Below, in pieces: positions 8,806-12,354 of a DNA stretch of 36,567 nucleotides. Within the stretch, counting starts at the first letter, position 1, and each line of letters begins with the position of its first letter. Position numbers and translations under genes: made by a program. This DNA is from a virus. Lineage: Duplodnaviria; Heunggongvirae; Uroviricota; Caudoviricetes. The stretch lies in the IMG/VR virus record IMGVR_UViG_2671180349_000007. The stretch is one strand, 5' to 3'. A model generated the notes under the pieces. The model saw only the letters and a program-made list of their open reading frames with translations, made no database searches and had not been told where the DNA came from.

Positions 8806-9051
8806 TTGGCAGAACGTGTTGATGATGCAGAGCTGAGCATGAATCAGTTAGAAGCTCTCAAAGACATGGCCATCGATAACATCAGAAAGCAGGCACAGGT
8901 CGTGAGCCAGGTATTTACAGGGAAGTGTCGTTACTGCAATGAATCGATTGAATCAGGCATTTATTGTGACGCTGAATGTGCGCAATGGCACAGGGAAGAG
9001 CAGGCCGCAAAACAGCGTAAATATGGCATGCGACCGGCAGGATTTGACTGA
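8806..9051 (+). CDS. small zinc-ribbon protein (81 aa)
   Basis: TTG start with GAGGA RBS; C-terminal CRYCNESIESGIYCDAEC four-cysteine cluster. Confidence 0.5.
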   Translation: MAERVDDAELSMNQLEALKDMAIDNIRKQAQVVSQVFTGKCRYCNESIESGIYCDAECAQWHREEQAAKQRKYGMRPAGFD

Positions 9052-9053
9052 TT

Positions 9054-9632
9054 ATGTTGCGCTTTACTGAGGAAGAGTTTCAGGCTTTTAGTGAGCGTCG
9101 AAATAAGGGGCGGTCCAGGCCAAAAACCAAAAAGGATCCATTCTTATCGCTTGCGCCGGTAAAAGAAGTTTCTCCACATGCGAAGGCACTTGCAGCACTT
9201 GCAAAGAACCCAGACCTGCGCGACGGAAATTGCGAGCACTTCGAGCAGGTTTTCATTTTTGATTACTTCGAACGCAAGCACCCTGACATCTATGAGCTGT
9301 TGCATGCAACGCCTAACGGAGGGAAACGTTCAAAAGCAACCGCCGGGAAAATGAAGGCTGAAGGGCAGAAAAAAGGTTATCCGGACATGAGTCTCGATAA
9401 AGCATGCGGTATTTATCACGGCATGCGAATTGAGCTTAAAGAACCAAATGGTAAAGCCCCGACGAAAGAGCAGATCGCCTGGATGCGCAGGCTTAGAGAG
9501 GAAGGCTACTACGTTGTTCTTGCGTATGGTGCAGAACAAGCGATTACCGCCATCCTGGAATACATAAGTCTTAAAAAGGGTGAGGCTATTGAGCATGTAT
9601 TGAACGGCGATAAGTGGTTGCATGCTGCTTAA
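9054..9632 (+). CDS. VRR-NUC domain nuclease (PD-(D/E)xK family)
   Basis: GYPDM...IELK...KEQIAWMRRLREEGYYVVLAYG fits the VRR-NUC catalytic and C-terminal pattern. Confidence 0.7.
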   Translation: MLRFTEEEFQAFSERRNKGRSRPKTKKDPFLSLAPVKEVSPHAKALAALAKNPDLRDGNCEHFEQVFIFDYFERKHPDIYELLHATPNGGKRSKATAGKMKAEGQKKGYPDMSLDKACGIYHGMRIELKEPNGKAPTKEQIAWMRRLREEGYYVVLAYGAEQAITAILEYISLKKGEAIEHVLNGDKWLHAA

Positions 9633-9698
9633 AATAATAAATTAATTAGTGCATGTACGCTCTTTGTGGTAGTGCACTTTAACATCGGGAGAATAATC

Positions 9699-9854
9699 GT
9701 GTCATCCAAGGTTAATTATGAGTCGCTGGCATCGGTCATGCCGCGTAATGAACAGGAAACAGATGCTGTAGTGGACCCTGTAATCGCTGAAATGAATGCT
9801 CGCCTGGAGGCTGAATTTGCAGCTGAGAATGAACATACCACCCAGGGCGACTAG
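9699..9854 (+). CDS. small hypothetical protein (about 51 aa)
   Basis: GTG start with GGGAGA RBS; short; overlaps the start of the next gene. Confidence 0.3.
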   Translation: MSSKVNYESLASVMPRNEQETDAVVDPVIAEMNARLEAEFAAENEHTTQGD

Positions 9855-10458
9855 GACTGTTTTTTGTGTCGGTAGCGGTCCGTCACTCACTCGTGAGGAC
9901 TGTGCTGCTATAGAAAAAACTGGCTGTTCAATCATCGCGGTTAACAATTCCTGGCAGATGTTCGATGACATTTATGCTTTATACGCCGGTGATTTGTCAT
10001 GGTGGAAGCAATACGGATCCACCATACCGGGAGGGAGGTTCCGCAAAGTGACAGCCAACCTGGCGGCGGCGAAATCATTTTCGTTGGAGTACAGGCGATA
10101 TTGTGGACCGGCGGAAGGGGTAAATAGCGGCGCGCAGGCTATCAGTCTGGCTGCTGAATCAGGGGCTGAAGTAGTGGTATTAGTCGGCTATGACTGTTCT
10201 CTGCAAAACGGCCTTCATTGGCATGGCGCGCACCCTCAAGCACTACGGAATCCAACGCAGGTGTCTATTTCAAAATGGCAACAGCAGTTCCTGGATACCC
10301 GCAAAAAACACGCAGATTTACATATTTTGAATGCAAGTAGGAGCAGTGCAATTCAATGTTTCCCAAGAATAAATTTAGAGGCAGTGATCGCGTTATTATC
10401 GTCGGCAGTGGCCCAAGCGCCGCAAACTTTGTTGCGCCGCGCGGAGTGCCGATTATAG
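9796..10458 (+). CDS. GT42/MAF_flag10-like transferase paralogue A
   Basis: N-terminal VFCVGSGPS...IIAVNNS, later LVGYDCS and HWHGAH, resembling the GxGPS/catalytic-His layout of CstII-type sialyltransferases and Maf proteins; start uncertain (ATG 9796 or 9829). Confidence 0.55.
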   Translation: MLAWRLNLQLRMNIPPRATRTVFCVGSGPSLTREDCAAIEKTGCSIIAVNNSWQMFDDIYALYAGDLSWWKQYGSTIPGGRFRKVTANLAAAKSFSLEYRRYCGPAEGVNSGAQAISLAAESGAEVVVLVGYDCSLQNGLHWHGAHPQALRNPTQVSISKWQQQFLDTRKKHADLHILNASRSSAIQCFPRINLEAVIALLSSAVAQAPQTLLRRAECRL

Positions 10459-10982
10459 CGGTCAATGGGGCCATCGACTGGCTTAACCGCGCTTCTTATT
10501 TTTTCACACTTGATCCATCGCCAGACAATATGCGGCGCGTTGGTCGTGGCCGCCGTCGCCGTGGTGTTTGTTATTGCATGGCACTACCCGATGTTAAAGA
10601 ACGTGAAGTCAGAGATGGCGTTCTGTGCTTCCGTCGTGTGGCTGAACGCGGCACGGAGCCAAAAAATACGAATTCTCCCGAGTGGTGGGCGTGGCGCTGG
10701 TCCGCACATTTCGGCCTTTGTGAAGATGAGAATGAAATTGCCAGCGGCAATAGTGCATATGGTGCTCTGAACCTGGCTTTCCATATCGGATTCAAACATG
10801 TCGCCCTGGTGGGCGTTGACGCTACGCAAGAACCACGCGTTCACTCCGGCGGCACGCCAAAAAATCTAAGTCACCTGCCTTTGTTATTCCAGTCTGCGCG
10901 TGAACAGATTGACGTTGTTTCATGCGGGAAAATGGGAGGTATTCCGCAGATGACTCTTAAAGAATGGCTGAAGAATACATGA
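10356..10982 (+). CDS. GT42/MAF_flag10-like transferase paralogue B
   Basis: VIIVGSGPS...IIAVNGA...LVGVDAT with a strong TAGGAG RBS; overlaps paralogue A by 103 nt in another frame. Confidence 0.6.
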
Positions 10983-11656
10983 TGGCACCAACAGTTTATC
11001 ACCGTATCGACGGTACCAAATACAGGAATATCTGGGTTGTTGGTGATCTGCATGGTTGCTACACCAGACTGATGTCCGAACTCCATCGTGTGGATTTTGA
11101 CCCGGCGCAGGATTTACTGATATCGCTCGGCGACCTTATCGATCGCGGTACTGAAAATGTCGAATGTCTGGAACTATTGCAGATGCCCTGGTTCAGGGCA
11201 GTGATGGGGAACCATGAGCGGTTGATGCTCGATGCGTTAAGTCCTGATGGCAACGTGAATAACTGGCTAATGAATGGCGGACAATGGTTCTTCATGCTGG
11301 ACACTGATCAGGAAATATTAGCCAGGGCGCTGGTGGAGCTGGTAAGACGTCTGCCCTATATCATTGAGTTGAACACCGGGCAAGAAACTATCGTTATAGC
11401 CCATGCCGACTATCCGGATAATGAATATCAATTCGGTAAGGAGGTGCCGCTTTTCAACGTTGTCTGGGCGCGCGAGCGTATCAGTGATTCGATGGATGAT
11501 ATTGGTGGCGAAATTTCTGGCGCAGATCGTTTTATCTTTGGTCACACTCCGGTGAAAAGCCCGAAGACATTCTGGAATCAGCATTATATCGACACTGGTG
11601 CCGTATTTTGCGGAAACCTGACATTGATGAAAGTGAAAGGTGATGGTGCAGCATGA
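10979..11656 (+). CDS. Ser/Thr protein phosphatase, lambda PPase (ORF221) type
   Basis: Near-collinear with lambda phosphatase as I recall it: [26 protein letters not shown], and C-terminal [13 protein letters not shown]. Confidence 0.85.
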
Positions 11657-12354
11657 AGATTGCTTTAGTTCTTCGCTCTGGTGGTGACTATAACGCTTCC
11701 GATGTGCAGTGGCTGGTTAATCAACTGCCAAAAGGCTATGAAATTATTTGCCTGACAGACCTGAAGCGTTTACATGTACCTGGCGTCAAAGTTGTCCCAT
11801 TGATCAACCAGTGGCAAAAGTGCCGTGGCTGGTGGGCGAAAATCGAGTTGTTCCGACCGGATATAACCGATGATCTGTTCTATCTGGATTTGGACACAGT
11901 TATTGCCGGTGATATACGCCCAATCCTTGAGAATCCACCAACCAGCTTCACCATGCTTAGGGATTTTTACCATCCACAATATCGTGGTAGCGGTGCCCTG
12001 TGGATACCAAATAGTGTAAAAGCGCATATCTGGAGTGCATTCTGGCAAGATCCGGAAGGTTGGGTTGCTCGTTGTGTTACTACTGAATGCTGGGGTGATC
12101 AGGGGTTTTTGCGGAAGGTTATGGGTGATGATACACCAGCATTTCAGGATCTGTATCCGGGATGGTTTGTAAGTTACAAGGCCGATGTTGTGGAACCTGG
12201 TTCGAAATATGCAAGCGCGCGTTACTCCAGGGGGAATGGGGCATTACCAAAAGACTGCCGAATAATCTTTTTCCACGGCAAACCGCGACCTCGCGAAGTG
12301 TCAGAGGATTGGCTTTCCCTTATTAGCTCATTTTTTGAGCAAAAATCAGAATAA
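11653..12354 (+). CDS. hypothetical protein with DxD-like motif (possible GT-A glycosyltransferase)
   Basis: ATG overlaps the previous stop (ATGA); motif [13 protein letters not shown]; function uncertain. Confidence 0.55.

What the first reader, a model, noticed from the sequence alone, without database searches (positions are those of the whole stretch)
8806..12354. Accessory operon: VRR-NUC nuclease, two GT42/MAF-like transferases, lambda-type phosphatase and a DxD protein
One plus-strand operon, bounded by C1-operator-like sites at 8732 and 12356, encodes a zinc-ribbon protein, a VRR-NUC nuclease, two paralogous GxGPS-motif transferases, a Ser/Thr phosphatase and a possible GT-A glycosyltransferase. 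I do not recognise this combination as a described module. Sugar or nucleotide transferases next to a nuclease and a phosphatase could point to DNA or protein modification used for self-protection or counter-defence, but that is speculative.
Basis: inference. Interest (0 to 1): 0.55.

Follow-up and report, generated by a model that had tools for sequence, protein, structure and literature searches.

The report
P1 pmgO–pmgQ phage glycosylation cassette
This is the known, dispensable pmgL–pmgQ region of phage P1; three of its genes form a sugar-transferase cassette, shared with many unrelated phages of Gram-negative bacteria, whose target is still unknown.

Summary
The window is a P1-like phage-plasmid, 98.8% identical to P1. 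The finding covers P1 genes pmgL, pmgM, pmgN, pmgO, pmgP, ppp and pmgQ.

It is not one simple operon. Published work reports in-frame deletions of all seven genes, none essential.

The only part conserved outside P1 relatives is pmgO-pmgP-pmgQ.
- PmgO and PmgP are paralogous MptE-like transferases. PmgO folds like the flagellin glycosyltransferase Maf. The PmgP family is homologous to WaaZ, the LPS Kdo III transferase.
- PmgQ is a GT8-like glycosyltransferase (fold, DxD and distal-His motifs).
- The gene order recurs in unrelated phages. O and P are fused in one, and ppp is absent from a P1 relative.
- In diverse viral contigs the cassette often sits between the major capsid and head-tail connector genes, with sugar-tailoring enzymes.

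Best reading: a glycan-building cassette, probably using CMP-Kdo and a UDP-hexose. The acceptor is unresolved: a virion protein (favoured) or the LPS core. The genes are ordinary and already annotated; the cassette is moderately interesting.

The parts
8699..8717 (+). Late promoter LPpmgL, back to back with LP26
   Evidence: Annotated in P1 record AF234172. Coordinates were transferred through the ungapped 98.8% match, window = locus + 6099.
8732..8748 (-). C1 operator O26 (Op82)
   Evidence: 2 mismatches to the C1 consensus. Annotated in the P1 record.
8806..9051 (+). pmgL: 81-aa protein with four Cys, similar to DksA/TraR-like zinc-finger proteins. Not part of the cassette.
   Evidence: phrog_54 E 1.6e-12 over residues 5-72. 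No Pfam or PDB match. Non-essential.
9054..9632 (+). pmgM: stand-alone VRR-NUC nuclease. Not part of the cassette.
   Evidence: PDB 4qbl VRR-NUC E 3.5e-17, with GYPD...IELK aligned. Pfam VRR_NUC 21.3 bits, just below the 23.8 cut-off. phrog_5702 Holliday junction resolvase 4.8e-27.
9600..9626 (+). Predicted sigma-70 promoter PpmgN
   Evidence: Annotated in the P1 record. Not found by the simple consensus scan.
9639..9655 (-). C1 operator Oppp (Op83). It splits the region into two C1-controlled units.
   Evidence: Annotated in the P1 and P7 records. The sequence read has 4 mismatches to the consensus, so it was missed at the 3-mismatch limit.
9699..9854 (+). pmgN: small acidic protein found only in P1 relatives (the ORF is open from GTG at 9666)
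   Evidence: phrog_2350 only. Homologues only in P1-like loci. Scored essential by CRISPRi but not by deletion.
9796..10458 (+). pmgO: MptE-like, Maf/GT42-type transferase; first enzyme of the cassette
10356..10982 (+). pmgP: paralogue of PmgO and remote homologue of the LPS Kdo III transferase WaaZ; second enzyme
   Evidence: hhalign PmgP family vs WaaZ family 96.6%, E 5.1e-10, 197 columns. PmgO vs PmgP families 99.5%. Other family members pass the Pfam MptE-like cut-off. Fused to PmgO in P0051.
10964..11656 (+). ppp: lambda-type Ser/Thr phosphatase; an insertion inside the cassette
   Evidence: PDB 1g5b E 2.6e-94. Pfam Metallophos 60 bits. Absent between P and Q in JK004, phiNP and L006, and located elsewhere in D6.
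11653..12354 (+). pmgQ: GT8-like GT-A glycosyltransferase; third enzyme
12356..12421 (.). Inverted C1 operators OpmgRa (12356-12372, +) and OpmgRb (12405-12421, -) enclosing a hairpin plus U-run (12381-12411): terminator-like end of the pmgN-pmgQ unit, overlapping promoter PpmgR
   Evidence: RNA fold -26.9 kcal/mol, z -9.7.

Best explanation
**Layout (shown).** The region is the pmgL-pmgQ segment of a P1-like phage. It holds two C1-repressed transcription units that carry genes with different jobs.

**Conserved unit (shown).** The only functionally coherent, evolutionarily conserved unit is pmgO-pmgP-pmgQ.
- PmgO and PmgP are small paralogous transferases of the MptE-like fold. That fold also includes the CMP-ulosonic-acid transferases Cst-I/II (sialic acid), Maf (pseudaminic or legionaminic acid onto flagellin) and WaaZ (Kdo).
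- PmgQ is a GT8-type GT-A enzyme; characterised GT8 enzymes are retaining and metal-dependent.

**Chemistry (inferred).** When C1 repression is lifted, the three enzymes build a short glycan in the cytoplasm. The likely donors are CMP-Kdo, which I believe is the only CMP-activated ulosonic acid that E. coli K-12 makes, and a UDP-hexose.

**Acceptor (inferred, least certain).** The most likely acceptor is a phage virion protein. This would resemble mycobacteriophage virion glycosylation and would be dispensable for plaque formation in the laboratory.

**Neighbours, not partners.** ppp is a lambda-type phosphatase cassette inserted between pmgP and pmgQ. pmgL (TraR/DksA-like zinc finger), pmgM (VRR-NUC nuclease) and pmgN are P1-lineage neighbours.
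For: **Identity and regulation**
-.

**Enzyme families**
- PmgO and PmgP profiles pick up only Cst-I/II in the PDB through the GxGPS and (N/T)SG...GxD motifs, all below significance.
- PmgO and PmgP families: hhalign 99.5%.
- PmgP family vs WaaZ family: 96.6%, E 5e-10, near full length.
- WaaZ itself scores on Pfam MptE-like, and its database entries carry PF01973 plus PF27901.
- PmgQ is GT8-like by profile, fold and motifs.

**Cassette conservation**
- O-P-Q in the same order in phiNP, EP_H11, a metagenomic podophage-like contig (O and P fused), a 248-kb phage contig, Xoo-sp13 and JK004.
- In the isolate-phage collection, all 8 records outside the P1/P7 group (under 81% identity) that encode PmgP also encode PmgQ; in the 7 whose O, P and Q coordinates were mapped or can be compared, P and Q lie within about 1.3 kb.
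- Of 80 non-P1 viral contigs with PmgQ, 46 also carry an O/P-family gene on the same strand, nearly always upstream.

**Glycan context**
- Genes inside or beside the cassettes: FkbM methyltransferases (13), sulfotransferases, GT2 and other GT-A enzymes, an epimerase, PIG-L.
- A GT4-like enzyme sits at the ppp position in EP_H11.
- KdsB-like and KdsD-like genes lie directly upstream of PmgQ in L235.

**Virion link**
- Upstream neighbours: major capsid in 18 of 72 loci. Downstream neighbours: head completion 12, connector 9, tail completion 6.
- Individual examples: D3, Martelella and Onishia prophages.
- The PAJU2 homologue was deposited as 'structural protein'.

**Host range**
- Every identifiable bacterial host among the phage hits is Gram-negative.

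**Dispensability**
-.
Against: - No biochemical data exist for any of the three proteins.
- P1's own PmgO and PmgP score below the Pfam MptE-like cut-off, and PmgQ has no Pfam hit.
- PmgO alone matches WaaZ only weakly (47%).
- CMP-Kdo as donor is an inference from host metabolism, the WaaZ homology and one kdsB/kdsD-carrying locus.
- Glycosylation of P1 virions has never been reported. The 2026 cryo-EM paper on P1, with maps down to 3.2 Å, mentions no glycan. None of these proteins is named among the virion components discussed in the main-text passages read.
- Capsid-adjacent, lysis-adjacent and integrase-adjacent sites are also typical moron sites.
- The 80 contigs were ranked by similarity to one prophage protein, so part of the synteny may be inherited rather than independent.
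Confidence: 0.4

Rival explanations
1. Same enzymes, different acceptor: the cassette remodels the host LPS core during lytic growth. PmgP, perhaps with PmgO, adds extra Kdo to the inner core as WaaZ does. PmgQ adds a hexose as the GT8 core enzymes WaaO and WaaJ do. The altered or truncated core would mask the P1 receptor (the terminal core glucose), limiting superinfection or the loss of progeny on cell debris.
For: - The PmgP family is homologous to WaaZ.
- All identifiable hosts are Gram-negative.
- In phage Chlobot the PmgQ homologue lies between the integrase and tail-fibre genes, the classic site for surface-conversion genes.
- The cassette abuts host-specificity or tail genes in Xoo-sp13 and L006.
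- From my own knowledge (Frirdich et al. 2003; Klein et al. 2011): waaZ overexpression truncates the outer core.
Against: - In P1 the genes are C1-repressed, so they are not expressed as lysogenic-conversion genes.
- LPS made late in infection would dilute old receptors only slowly.
- Frequent placement between capsid and connector genes is not where known surface-conversion genes sit.
- There are no membrane components like those of Gtr systems.
- PmgQ is closer in sequence to protein-directed GT8 enzymes (AgtA, glycogenin, GlyE) than to LgtC, which the profile did not retrieve.
Confidence: 0.3
2. PmgO and PmgP are not glycosyltransferases but MptE- or thiamine-pyrophosphokinase-type diphosphokinases. 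Together with the phosphatase Ppp they act on a small molecule or nucleotide, for example a signalling compound.
For: - The Pfam hit is to the MptE-like diphosphokinase family.
- Ppp also resembles ApaH-type Ap4A hydrolases.
Against: - Ppp is not part of the conserved cassette.
- The conserved partners are glycosyltransferases, sugar methyl- and sulfotransferases and Kdo-pathway enzymes.
- The best fold match is Maf, and the best family match is WaaZ.
Confidence: 0.07
3. The transferases modify phage DNA by base glycosylation, protecting it from restriction.
For: - Phage glycosyltransferases that modify DNA exist.
- A nuclease gene lies nearby.
Against: - None of the seven proteins matches a base-hydroxymethylating enzyme, the step that usually precedes DNA glycosylation.
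- PmgM does not travel with the cassette.
- The deletion mutants showed no change in antirestriction activity.
- From my own knowledge: known DNA glucosyltransferases are GT-B enzymes, and P1 DNA is routinely cut and cloned.
- The cassette context is head genes and sugar-tailoring enzymes.
Confidence: 0.03
4. There is no joint function. The region is a collection of unrelated morons, and the apparent O-P-Q cassette reflects shared ancestry of the sampled phages.
For: - The region is mosaic. ppp is an insertion, and pmgL, pmgM and pmgN are lineage-specific.
- All genes are dispensable.
- The viral-contig sample is biased towards relatives of one prophage.
Against: - The O-P-Q order is kept in phages with unrelated genome types (P1-like, lambdoid, about 111-kb and over 240-kb phages) at only 30-57% protein identity.
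- O and P are fused in one phage.
- Overlapping O/P reading frames are conserved.
- P never occurs without Q in the isolate phages searched.
Confidence: 0.1

Closest known systems
WaaZ (RfaZ), the Kdo III transferase of the E. coli/Salmonella LPS inner core (CAZy GT73, from my own knowledge; Pfam PF01973 + PF27901)
   Same: The PmgP family aligns with the WaaZ family over 197 columns (hhalign 96.6%, E 5e-10). The alignment includes the GPS, VNG(A/S) and A..(I/L)A(Y/F)..G...I...G.D motifs. Both score on Pfam MptE-like.
   Different: PmgP is about 75 residues shorter. No PF27901 assignment was seen for P1's own proteins; the only cassette protein with one is the O-P fusion P0051, and that hit is 'faint'. 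Identity is only about 22%. PmgP is phage-encoded and paired with a paralogue. PmgO matches WaaZ only weakly. The acceptor is unknown.
Maf flagellin glycosyltransferases and Campylobacter Cst-I/Cst-II sialyltransferases (GT42)
   Different: PmgO and PmgP are minimal catalytic cores of about 180-200 residues, without Maf's flanking domains (5mu5 has 632 residues). Sequence matches are below significance. From my own knowledge, E. coli K-12 makes none of the usual donors (CMP-Neu5Ac, CMP-Pse, CMP-Leg).
GT8 retaining glycosyltransferases (glycogenin, AgtA, GlyE, LgtC, WaaO/WaaJ)
   Different: No hit to Pfam Glyco_transf_8 for the P1 protein. It is shorter (233 aa) and forms its own phage-borne family (phrog_1962). 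Donor and acceptor are unknown.
Mycobacteriophage virion glycosylation (Freeman et al. 2023; from my own knowledge, cited in papers retrieved)
   Same: Phage-encoded glycosyltransferases, often with methyltransferases, that are dispensable for growth and proposed or shown to decorate capsid and tail proteins.
   Different: Different enzyme families, Gram-negative hosts and a probable ulosonic-acid component. No glycan has been shown on P1 or any related virion.
Prophage surface-conversion modules (Gtr-type O-antigen glucosylation; D3 serotype conversion)
   Same: Phage-borne sugar transferases acting on the receptor-bearing LPS, often placed near tail-fibre or integrase genes (compare Chlobot).
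   Different: The P1 cassette is repressed in the lysogen, lacks membrane proteins, and usually sits inside head-gene clusters.

Membership tests
MptE-like / GT42 / Maf / WaaZ transferase superfamily (PmgO, PmgP) | Single Rossmann-like domain with the fold of Maf and Cst-I | tested here: met
MptE-like / GT42 / Maf / WaaZ transferase superfamily (PmgO, PmgP) | N-terminal GxGPS motif plus (N/T)SG and GxD nucleotide-binding motifs | tested here: met
   GSGPS, NSG and GYD in PmgO; GSGPS, GNS and GVD in PmgP. These are invariant or nearly so within each family and align to Cst-II GNGPS, TSG and GID.
MptE-like / GT42 / Maf / WaaZ transferase superfamily (PmgO, PmgP) | Score above the Pfam PF01973 gathering cut-off (34.6 bits) | tested here: not met
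   P1 PmgO scores 23.4 bits and PmgP 20.9 bits. Other PmgP-family members reach 44 bits, and several PmgO homologues carry a precomputed PF01973 assignment.
WaaZ-type Kdo transferase | Full-length homology to the WaaZ family | tested here: inconclusive
   PmgP family: 96.6%, E 5e-10. PmgO family: 47%, over the C-terminal third only.
WaaZ-type Kdo transferase | Transfer of Kdo from CMP-Kdo | not testable with these tools
   Indirect support only: host metabolism, Gram-negative-only hosts and one locus with kdsB/kdsD-like genes.
GT8 retaining glycosyltransferases (PmgQ) | GT-A fold closest to GT8 structures | tested here: met
GT8 retaining glycosyltransferases (PmgQ) | DxD metal/UDP-binding motif and distal His of the H..G..KPW motif | tested here: met
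   D79-L80-D81 and D149 invariant; Q150 and H208 nearly invariant. These align to the corresponding glycogenin and AgtA segments.
GT8 retaining glycosyltransferases (PmgQ) | Match to Pfam Glyco_transf_8 | tested here: not met
   No Pfam family at E up to 1 for the P1 protein. The family profile does reach GT8 structures at E 2e-8.
VRR-NUC nucleases (PmgM) | PD-(D/E)xK active-site motif in a VRR-NUC domain | tested here: met
   GYPD...IELK aligns with 4qbl, E 3.5e-17. Pfam score 21.3 is just below the 23.8 cut-off.
Lambda-type PPP-family Ser/Thr phosphatase (Ppp) | GDxHG, GDxxDRG and GNHE metal-binding motifs and full-length identity to lambda phosphatase | tested here: met
   GDLHG, GDLIDRG and GNHE are all present in the alignment with 1g5b, E 2.6e-94. 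Pfam Metallophos 60.2 bits against a 21.5 cut-off.
DksA/TraR-type zinc-finger regulators (PmgL) | C4 zinc finger after an N-terminal helix with an acidic tip | tested here: inconclusive
   phrog_54 E 1.6e-12. Four Cys in CxxC...CxxxC spacing and an N-terminal DDAE are visible in the sequence. No Pfam zf-dskA_traR hit and no PDB match.
Phage virion-glycosylation systems | Glycan covalently attached to a virion protein and dependent on the phage transferases | not testable with these tools
   Genomic context only. The P1 cryo-EM paper mentions no glycan.
Lysogenic surface-conversion modules | Expression in the lysogen | tested here: not met
   Both units carry annotated C1 operators at their promoters. 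No expression data were examined.

The most novel reading that the evidence does not exclude
P1 and many unrelated phages of Gram-negative bacteria use host CMP-Kdo and UDP-hexose to attach a short Kdo-containing glycan to their own virion proteins. This would be the first protein glycosylation with Kdo and the first virion-glycosylation system in phages of Gram-negative hosts. It would be carried out by a minimal two-paralogue MptE-like transferase pair plus a GT8 enzyme.
Probability: 0.15. Interest if true: 0.8.

Novelty: new variant of a known kind. Interest (0 to 1): 0.45.

Why it matters
P1 is a workhorse of E. coli genetics, yet these seven genes still carry the placeholder label 'putative morphogenetic function'.

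Recognising pmgO-pmgP-pmgQ as a portable glycan-building cassette gives three of them a testable function. The cassette is shared with lambdoid, HK97-like and jumbo phages and often sits inside head-gene clusters. The in-frame deletion mutants needed for the test already exist.

- If the acceptor is a virion protein, phage particle glycosylation extends from mycobacteriophages to Gram-negative hosts. That bears on immune recognition and stability of therapeutic phages.
- If the acceptor is LPS, this is a lytic-phase receptor-masking mechanism built from a phage copy of WaaZ.
- Either way, PmgO and PmgP are unusually small members of the Maf/WaaZ/GT42 fold and could be useful enzymes.

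Tried and rejected
**Searches that found nothing useful**
- Single-sequence searches of PmgO and PmgQ against the PDB gave only noise; family profiles were needed.
- PADLOC gave no credible defence-system match for any of the seven proteins. NCBIfam recognised only Ppp.
- BLASTP of PmgO against PmgP found only the GSGPS segment (E 0.003). Paralogy became clear only at profile level.
- The first two viral-contig scans returned almost only P1-like contigs. The scan was repeated with a distant homologue as first sequence.
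- The AlphaFold database fold library was not available.
- The simple terminator scan found nothing convincing and missed the hairpin after pmgQ. Direct folding showed it.
- Literature searches found no functional study of these genes: P1 with glycosyltransferase, WaaZ with phage, capsid glycosylation in Gram-negative hosts, and sialyltransferase/Maf with phage. The P1 genome paper (PMC523184) and the PAJU2 paper were not held.
- A P1-derived plasmid lacking most of the region turned out to be an IS1-truncated mosaic and was uninformative.

**Ideas rejected**
- The six-gene combination as one functional module.
- DNA glycosylation (see the rival explanations).
- Ppp as a partner of the transferases.

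Full report
**1. What the sequence is.**
Window 8600-12500 matches phage P1 (AF234172, NC_005856) over its whole length at 98.8% identity without gaps. Eighteen further P1-group phage records match at 97-99%. It also matches 799 plasmid records, 530 of them over at least 80% of the query, mostly Escherichia and Salmonella P1-like phage-plasmids. The finding is therefore the long-known P1 segment pmgL-pmgM-pmgN-pmgO-pmgP-ppp-pmgQ. In P7 the corresponding genes are upf81.0, upf81.2, hdmA-C, ppp and hdmD.

**2. Checking the observation.**
The ORFs are at the stated coordinates. C1-operator matches lie at 8732-8748 (-) and 12356-12372 (+). The window holds 10 such matches against 0.21 expected by chance. 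Two things were missed.
- pmgN (9699-9854; the ORF is open from 9666).
- An internal regulatory region. The P1 record annotates a sigma-70 promoter PpmgN (9600-9626) and a C1 operator Oppp (9639-9655, minus strand) between pmgM and pmgN. It also annotates a late promoter LPpmgL and two sigma-70 promoters upstream of pmgL. The operator sequence is present in the window with 4 mismatches to the consensus.

So there are two C1-controlled units, pmgL-pmgM and pmgN-pmgQ. Downstream of pmgQ, the two inverted operators OpmgRa and OpmgRb pair with each other and enclose an 11-bp hairpin followed by a U-run. The fold energy is -26.9 kcal/mol with z -9.7. This looks like a terminator closing the second unit.

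**3. What is already known.**
Gonzales et al. 2022 (PMC9024508) made in-frame deletions of pmgL, M, N, O, P, Q and ppp. Of their 29 knockouts, 24 showed no plaquing defect and no change in antirestriction activity. The five essential genes were pmgA, B, C, G and R. Piya et al. 2023 (PMC10695390) list all seven genes as non-essential by that deletion survey. By CRISPRi all were non-essential except pmgN, which the authors note contradicts the deletion result. None of the seven appears among the virion proteins named in the passages retrieved from the 2026 cryo-EM study of P1, and that paper does not mention glycans. RefSeq already labels the products VRR-NUC protein, alpha-2,3-sialyltransferase, metallophosphoesterase and glycosyltransferase. 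I found no functional study of them.

**4. The individual proteins.**
- **PmgL** matches phrog_54, 'DksA-like zinc-finger protein' (E 1.6e-12). It has four Cys, but no Pfam or PDB match.
- **PmgM** is a stand-alone VRR-NUC nuclease. It matches 4qbl at E 3.5e-17 with GYPD...IELK aligned, and phrog 'Holliday junction resolvase'.
- **Ppp** is a close homologue of lambda phosphatase (1g5b, E 2.6e-94) with all metal-binding motifs.
- **PmgO and PmgP profiles** retrieve only Cst-I/II from the PDB, below significance, through the GxGPS and (N/T)SG...GxD motifs.
- **PmgO and PmgP families** are clearly homologous (hhalign 99.5%, E 1e-22). Other PmgP-family members pass the Pfam MptE-like cut-off.

**5. 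The link to Kdo.**
A precomputed annotation on a PmgO-PmgP fusion protein pointed faintly to Pfam 'WaaZ_KDO_III'. I tested this directly.
- E. coli K-12 WaaZ scores on Pfam MptE-like (E 7e-7, nearly full length).
- WaaZ proteins in the database carry PF01973 plus PF27901.
- A profile of 22 WaaZ sequences aligns with the PmgP family over 197 columns (96.6%, E 5.1e-10).
- The same profile aligns only weakly with the PmgO family (47%).

So the characterised glycosyltransferases of this fold (Cst, Maf, WaaZ) use CMP-activated ulosonic acids. From my own knowledge, CMP-Kdo is the only such donor that E. coli K-12 makes. Two further observations fit.
- All named bacterial hosts of phages carrying O, P or Q homologues are Gram-negative.
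- One 88-kb viral contig (L235) encodes KdsB-like (31% identity) and KdsD-like (36%) proteins immediately upstream of its PmgQ homologue.

**6. What is conserved as a unit.**
tblastn of the P1 proteins against fetched loci shows pmgO-pmgP-pmgQ in the same order and strand in the following.
- Citrobacter phage phiNP, where it lies between the lysis genes and terS.
- E. coli phage EP_H11 (111 kb), which has a GT4-like gene at the ppp position and DUF7217 upstream.
- A metagenomic contig where O and P are one 376-aa protein, followed by Q and another GT-A enzyme.
- A 248-kb phage contig.
- Xanthomonas jumbo phage Xoo-sp13.
- Cronobacter P1-like phage JK004, where P is followed directly by Q with no ppp.

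In the isolate-phage collection, all 8 records outside the P1/P7 group (under 81% identity) that encode PmgP also encode PmgQ; in the 7 whose O, P and Q coordinates were mapped or can be compared, P and Q lie within about 1.3 kb. Phage D6 has ppp, 86% identical at protein level, in a different neighbourhood and lacks O, P and Q. Homologues of PmgL, PmgM, PmgN and Ppp were not found near the cassette outside P1 relatives. The O/P reading frames overlap here by 103 nt, in phiNP by 49 nt and in EP_H11 by 34 nt.

**7. Wider context.**
A scan of viral contigs ranked on a distant PmgQ homologue gave 80 non-P1 loci. With my own HMMs, 46 of them also carry an O/P-family gene, always on the same strand and nearly always upstream of Q.

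Pfam scans of the neighbours gave these counts.
- *Two nearest upstream ORFs:* major capsid families in 18 proteins from 72 loci, plus Clp or S78 protease, portal, connector proteins and FkbM methyltransferases.
- *Two nearest downstream ORFs:* head completion 12, gp6-like connector 9, tail completion 6, methyltransferases, PIG-L and large terminase 5.
- *Between or fused to cassette genes:* FkbM methyltransferases 13, sulfotransferases 6, GT2 3, other GT-A 3, radical SAM, epimerase/dehydratase.

Individual examples:
- Pseudomonas phage D3 has orf7 between the major head gene and the adaptor gene.
- A Martelella-type prophage contig and an Onishia prophage have capsid, O, Q, then connector genes.
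- A Hafnia prophage, phage Eowyn and D3 share O plus an orf12-like gene plus a methyltransferase.

Other placements also occur. In phage Chlobot, Q alone lies between the integrase and tail-fibre genes. In Xoo-sp13 the cassette lies next to a host-specificity gene.

Caveats: ORFs were called with a simple heuristic, and the sample is ranked on one protein, so part of the synteny may be inherited rather than independent.

**8. Interpretation.**
- *Shown:* the family assignments, the paralogy of O and P, the PmgP-WaaZ homology, the conservation of the O-P-Q cassette, its glycan-tailoring companions, its frequent position inside head-gene clusters, and the independence of ppp, pmgL, pmgM and pmgN.
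- *Inferred:* the three enzymes build one short glycan, the donors are CMP-Kdo and a UDP-hexose, and expression follows C1 derepression, possibly with late read-through from LPpmgL.
- *Most uncertain:* the acceptor.

I favour a virion protein, for four reasons.
- The head-module context.
- The best structural or sequence matches of PmgO (Maf) and PmgQ (AgtA, glycogenin, GlyE) act on proteins or protein-linked glycans.
- The PAJU2 homologue was deposited as 'structural protein'.
- There is a mycobacteriophage precedent.

The LPS-core alternative is nearly as good. WaaZ and GT8 are both waa-cluster families, P1's receptor is the core glucose (my own knowledge), and one homologue sits in a conversion-type position. 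No glycan has ever been reported on P1 particles. Pyrophosphokinase, DNA-modification and 'no joint function' readings are less likely, for the reasons given with the rivals.

**9. Novelty and verdict.**
The genes, their dispensability and their coarse annotations are already known, so the finding as written is largely a rediscovery of an annotated P1 region. I could not find three things in the literature: the recognition of pmgO-pmgP-pmgQ as a portable cassette, the WaaZ/Kdo link for PmgP, and the cassette's recurrent placement in head modules. I rate it a new variant of a known kind (phage-encoded glycosylation or surface-conversion cassettes). Interest is moderate, and mutants already exist for a cheap decisive test.

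Noticed in passing
window 12356-12421: The two inverted C1 operators OpmgRa and OpmgRb can pair with each other. They enclose an 11-bp hairpin followed by a U-run (12381-12411); RNA fold -26.9 kcal/mol, z -9.7. This terminator-like structure overlaps promoter PpmgR. It is not annotated as a terminator in the P1 record, and the simple terminator scan missed it.
   Followed up: partly
window 9699-9854 (pmgN): pmgN scored as essential in the dCas12a CRISPRi screen (plating efficiency 1.4e-2), yet its in-frame deletion plates normally and the downstream genes are non-essential. The discrepancy is unexplained; a polar or roadblock effect near PpmgN/Oppp is possible.
   Followed up: no
window 9796-9860 (start of pmgO): PmgO homologues start around P1 residue 17-21, and the model has low confidence for residues 1-12. 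The annotated start at 9796, which overlaps pmgN by 59 nt, may be too far upstream. An in-frame ATG lies at 9829.
   Followed up: partly
L006 8001-9131 (protein P0051): A metagenomic phage encodes PmgO and PmgP as one 376-aa fusion protein. It lies directly after the lysis genes and is followed by a PmgQ homologue and a second GT-A enzyme. This supports physical cooperation between the two paralogues.
   Followed up: partly
L235 4726-7732: An 88-kb viral contig carries KdsB-like (CMP-Kdo synthetase) and KdsD-like (arabinose-5-phosphate isomerase) genes immediately upstream of its PmgQ homologue. They sit downstream of the portal gene and are followed by methyltransferases and a radical-SAM gene.
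   Followed up: partly
L260 3474-4043 (Pseudomonas phage PAJU2 ORF010): The PmgO homologue of PAJU2 is deposited as 'structural protein'. The same label on the Klebsiella phage Eowyn homologue may be copied from it. If it rests on virion protein sequencing, the enzyme would be particle-associated. The original paper was not available.
   Followed up: no
L175 (Cronobacter phage JK004) and L174 (phage D6): ppp is missing from JK004's otherwise syntenic pmgL-pmgS region. In D6 it lies among lambdoid nin/ea-type genes. The phosphatase therefore moves independently of its P1 neighbours.
   Followed up: yes
L005 6894-8289 (D3 orf12-orf13), L172 4589-6083, L012 8561-10007: A second recurrent trio exists: a PmgO homologue, a protein of about 280 aa with unknown function (phrog_6804) and a SAM methyltransferase. 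It occurs in D3, PAJU2, Eowyn and a Hafnia prophage, without PmgP or PmgQ.
   Followed up: partly
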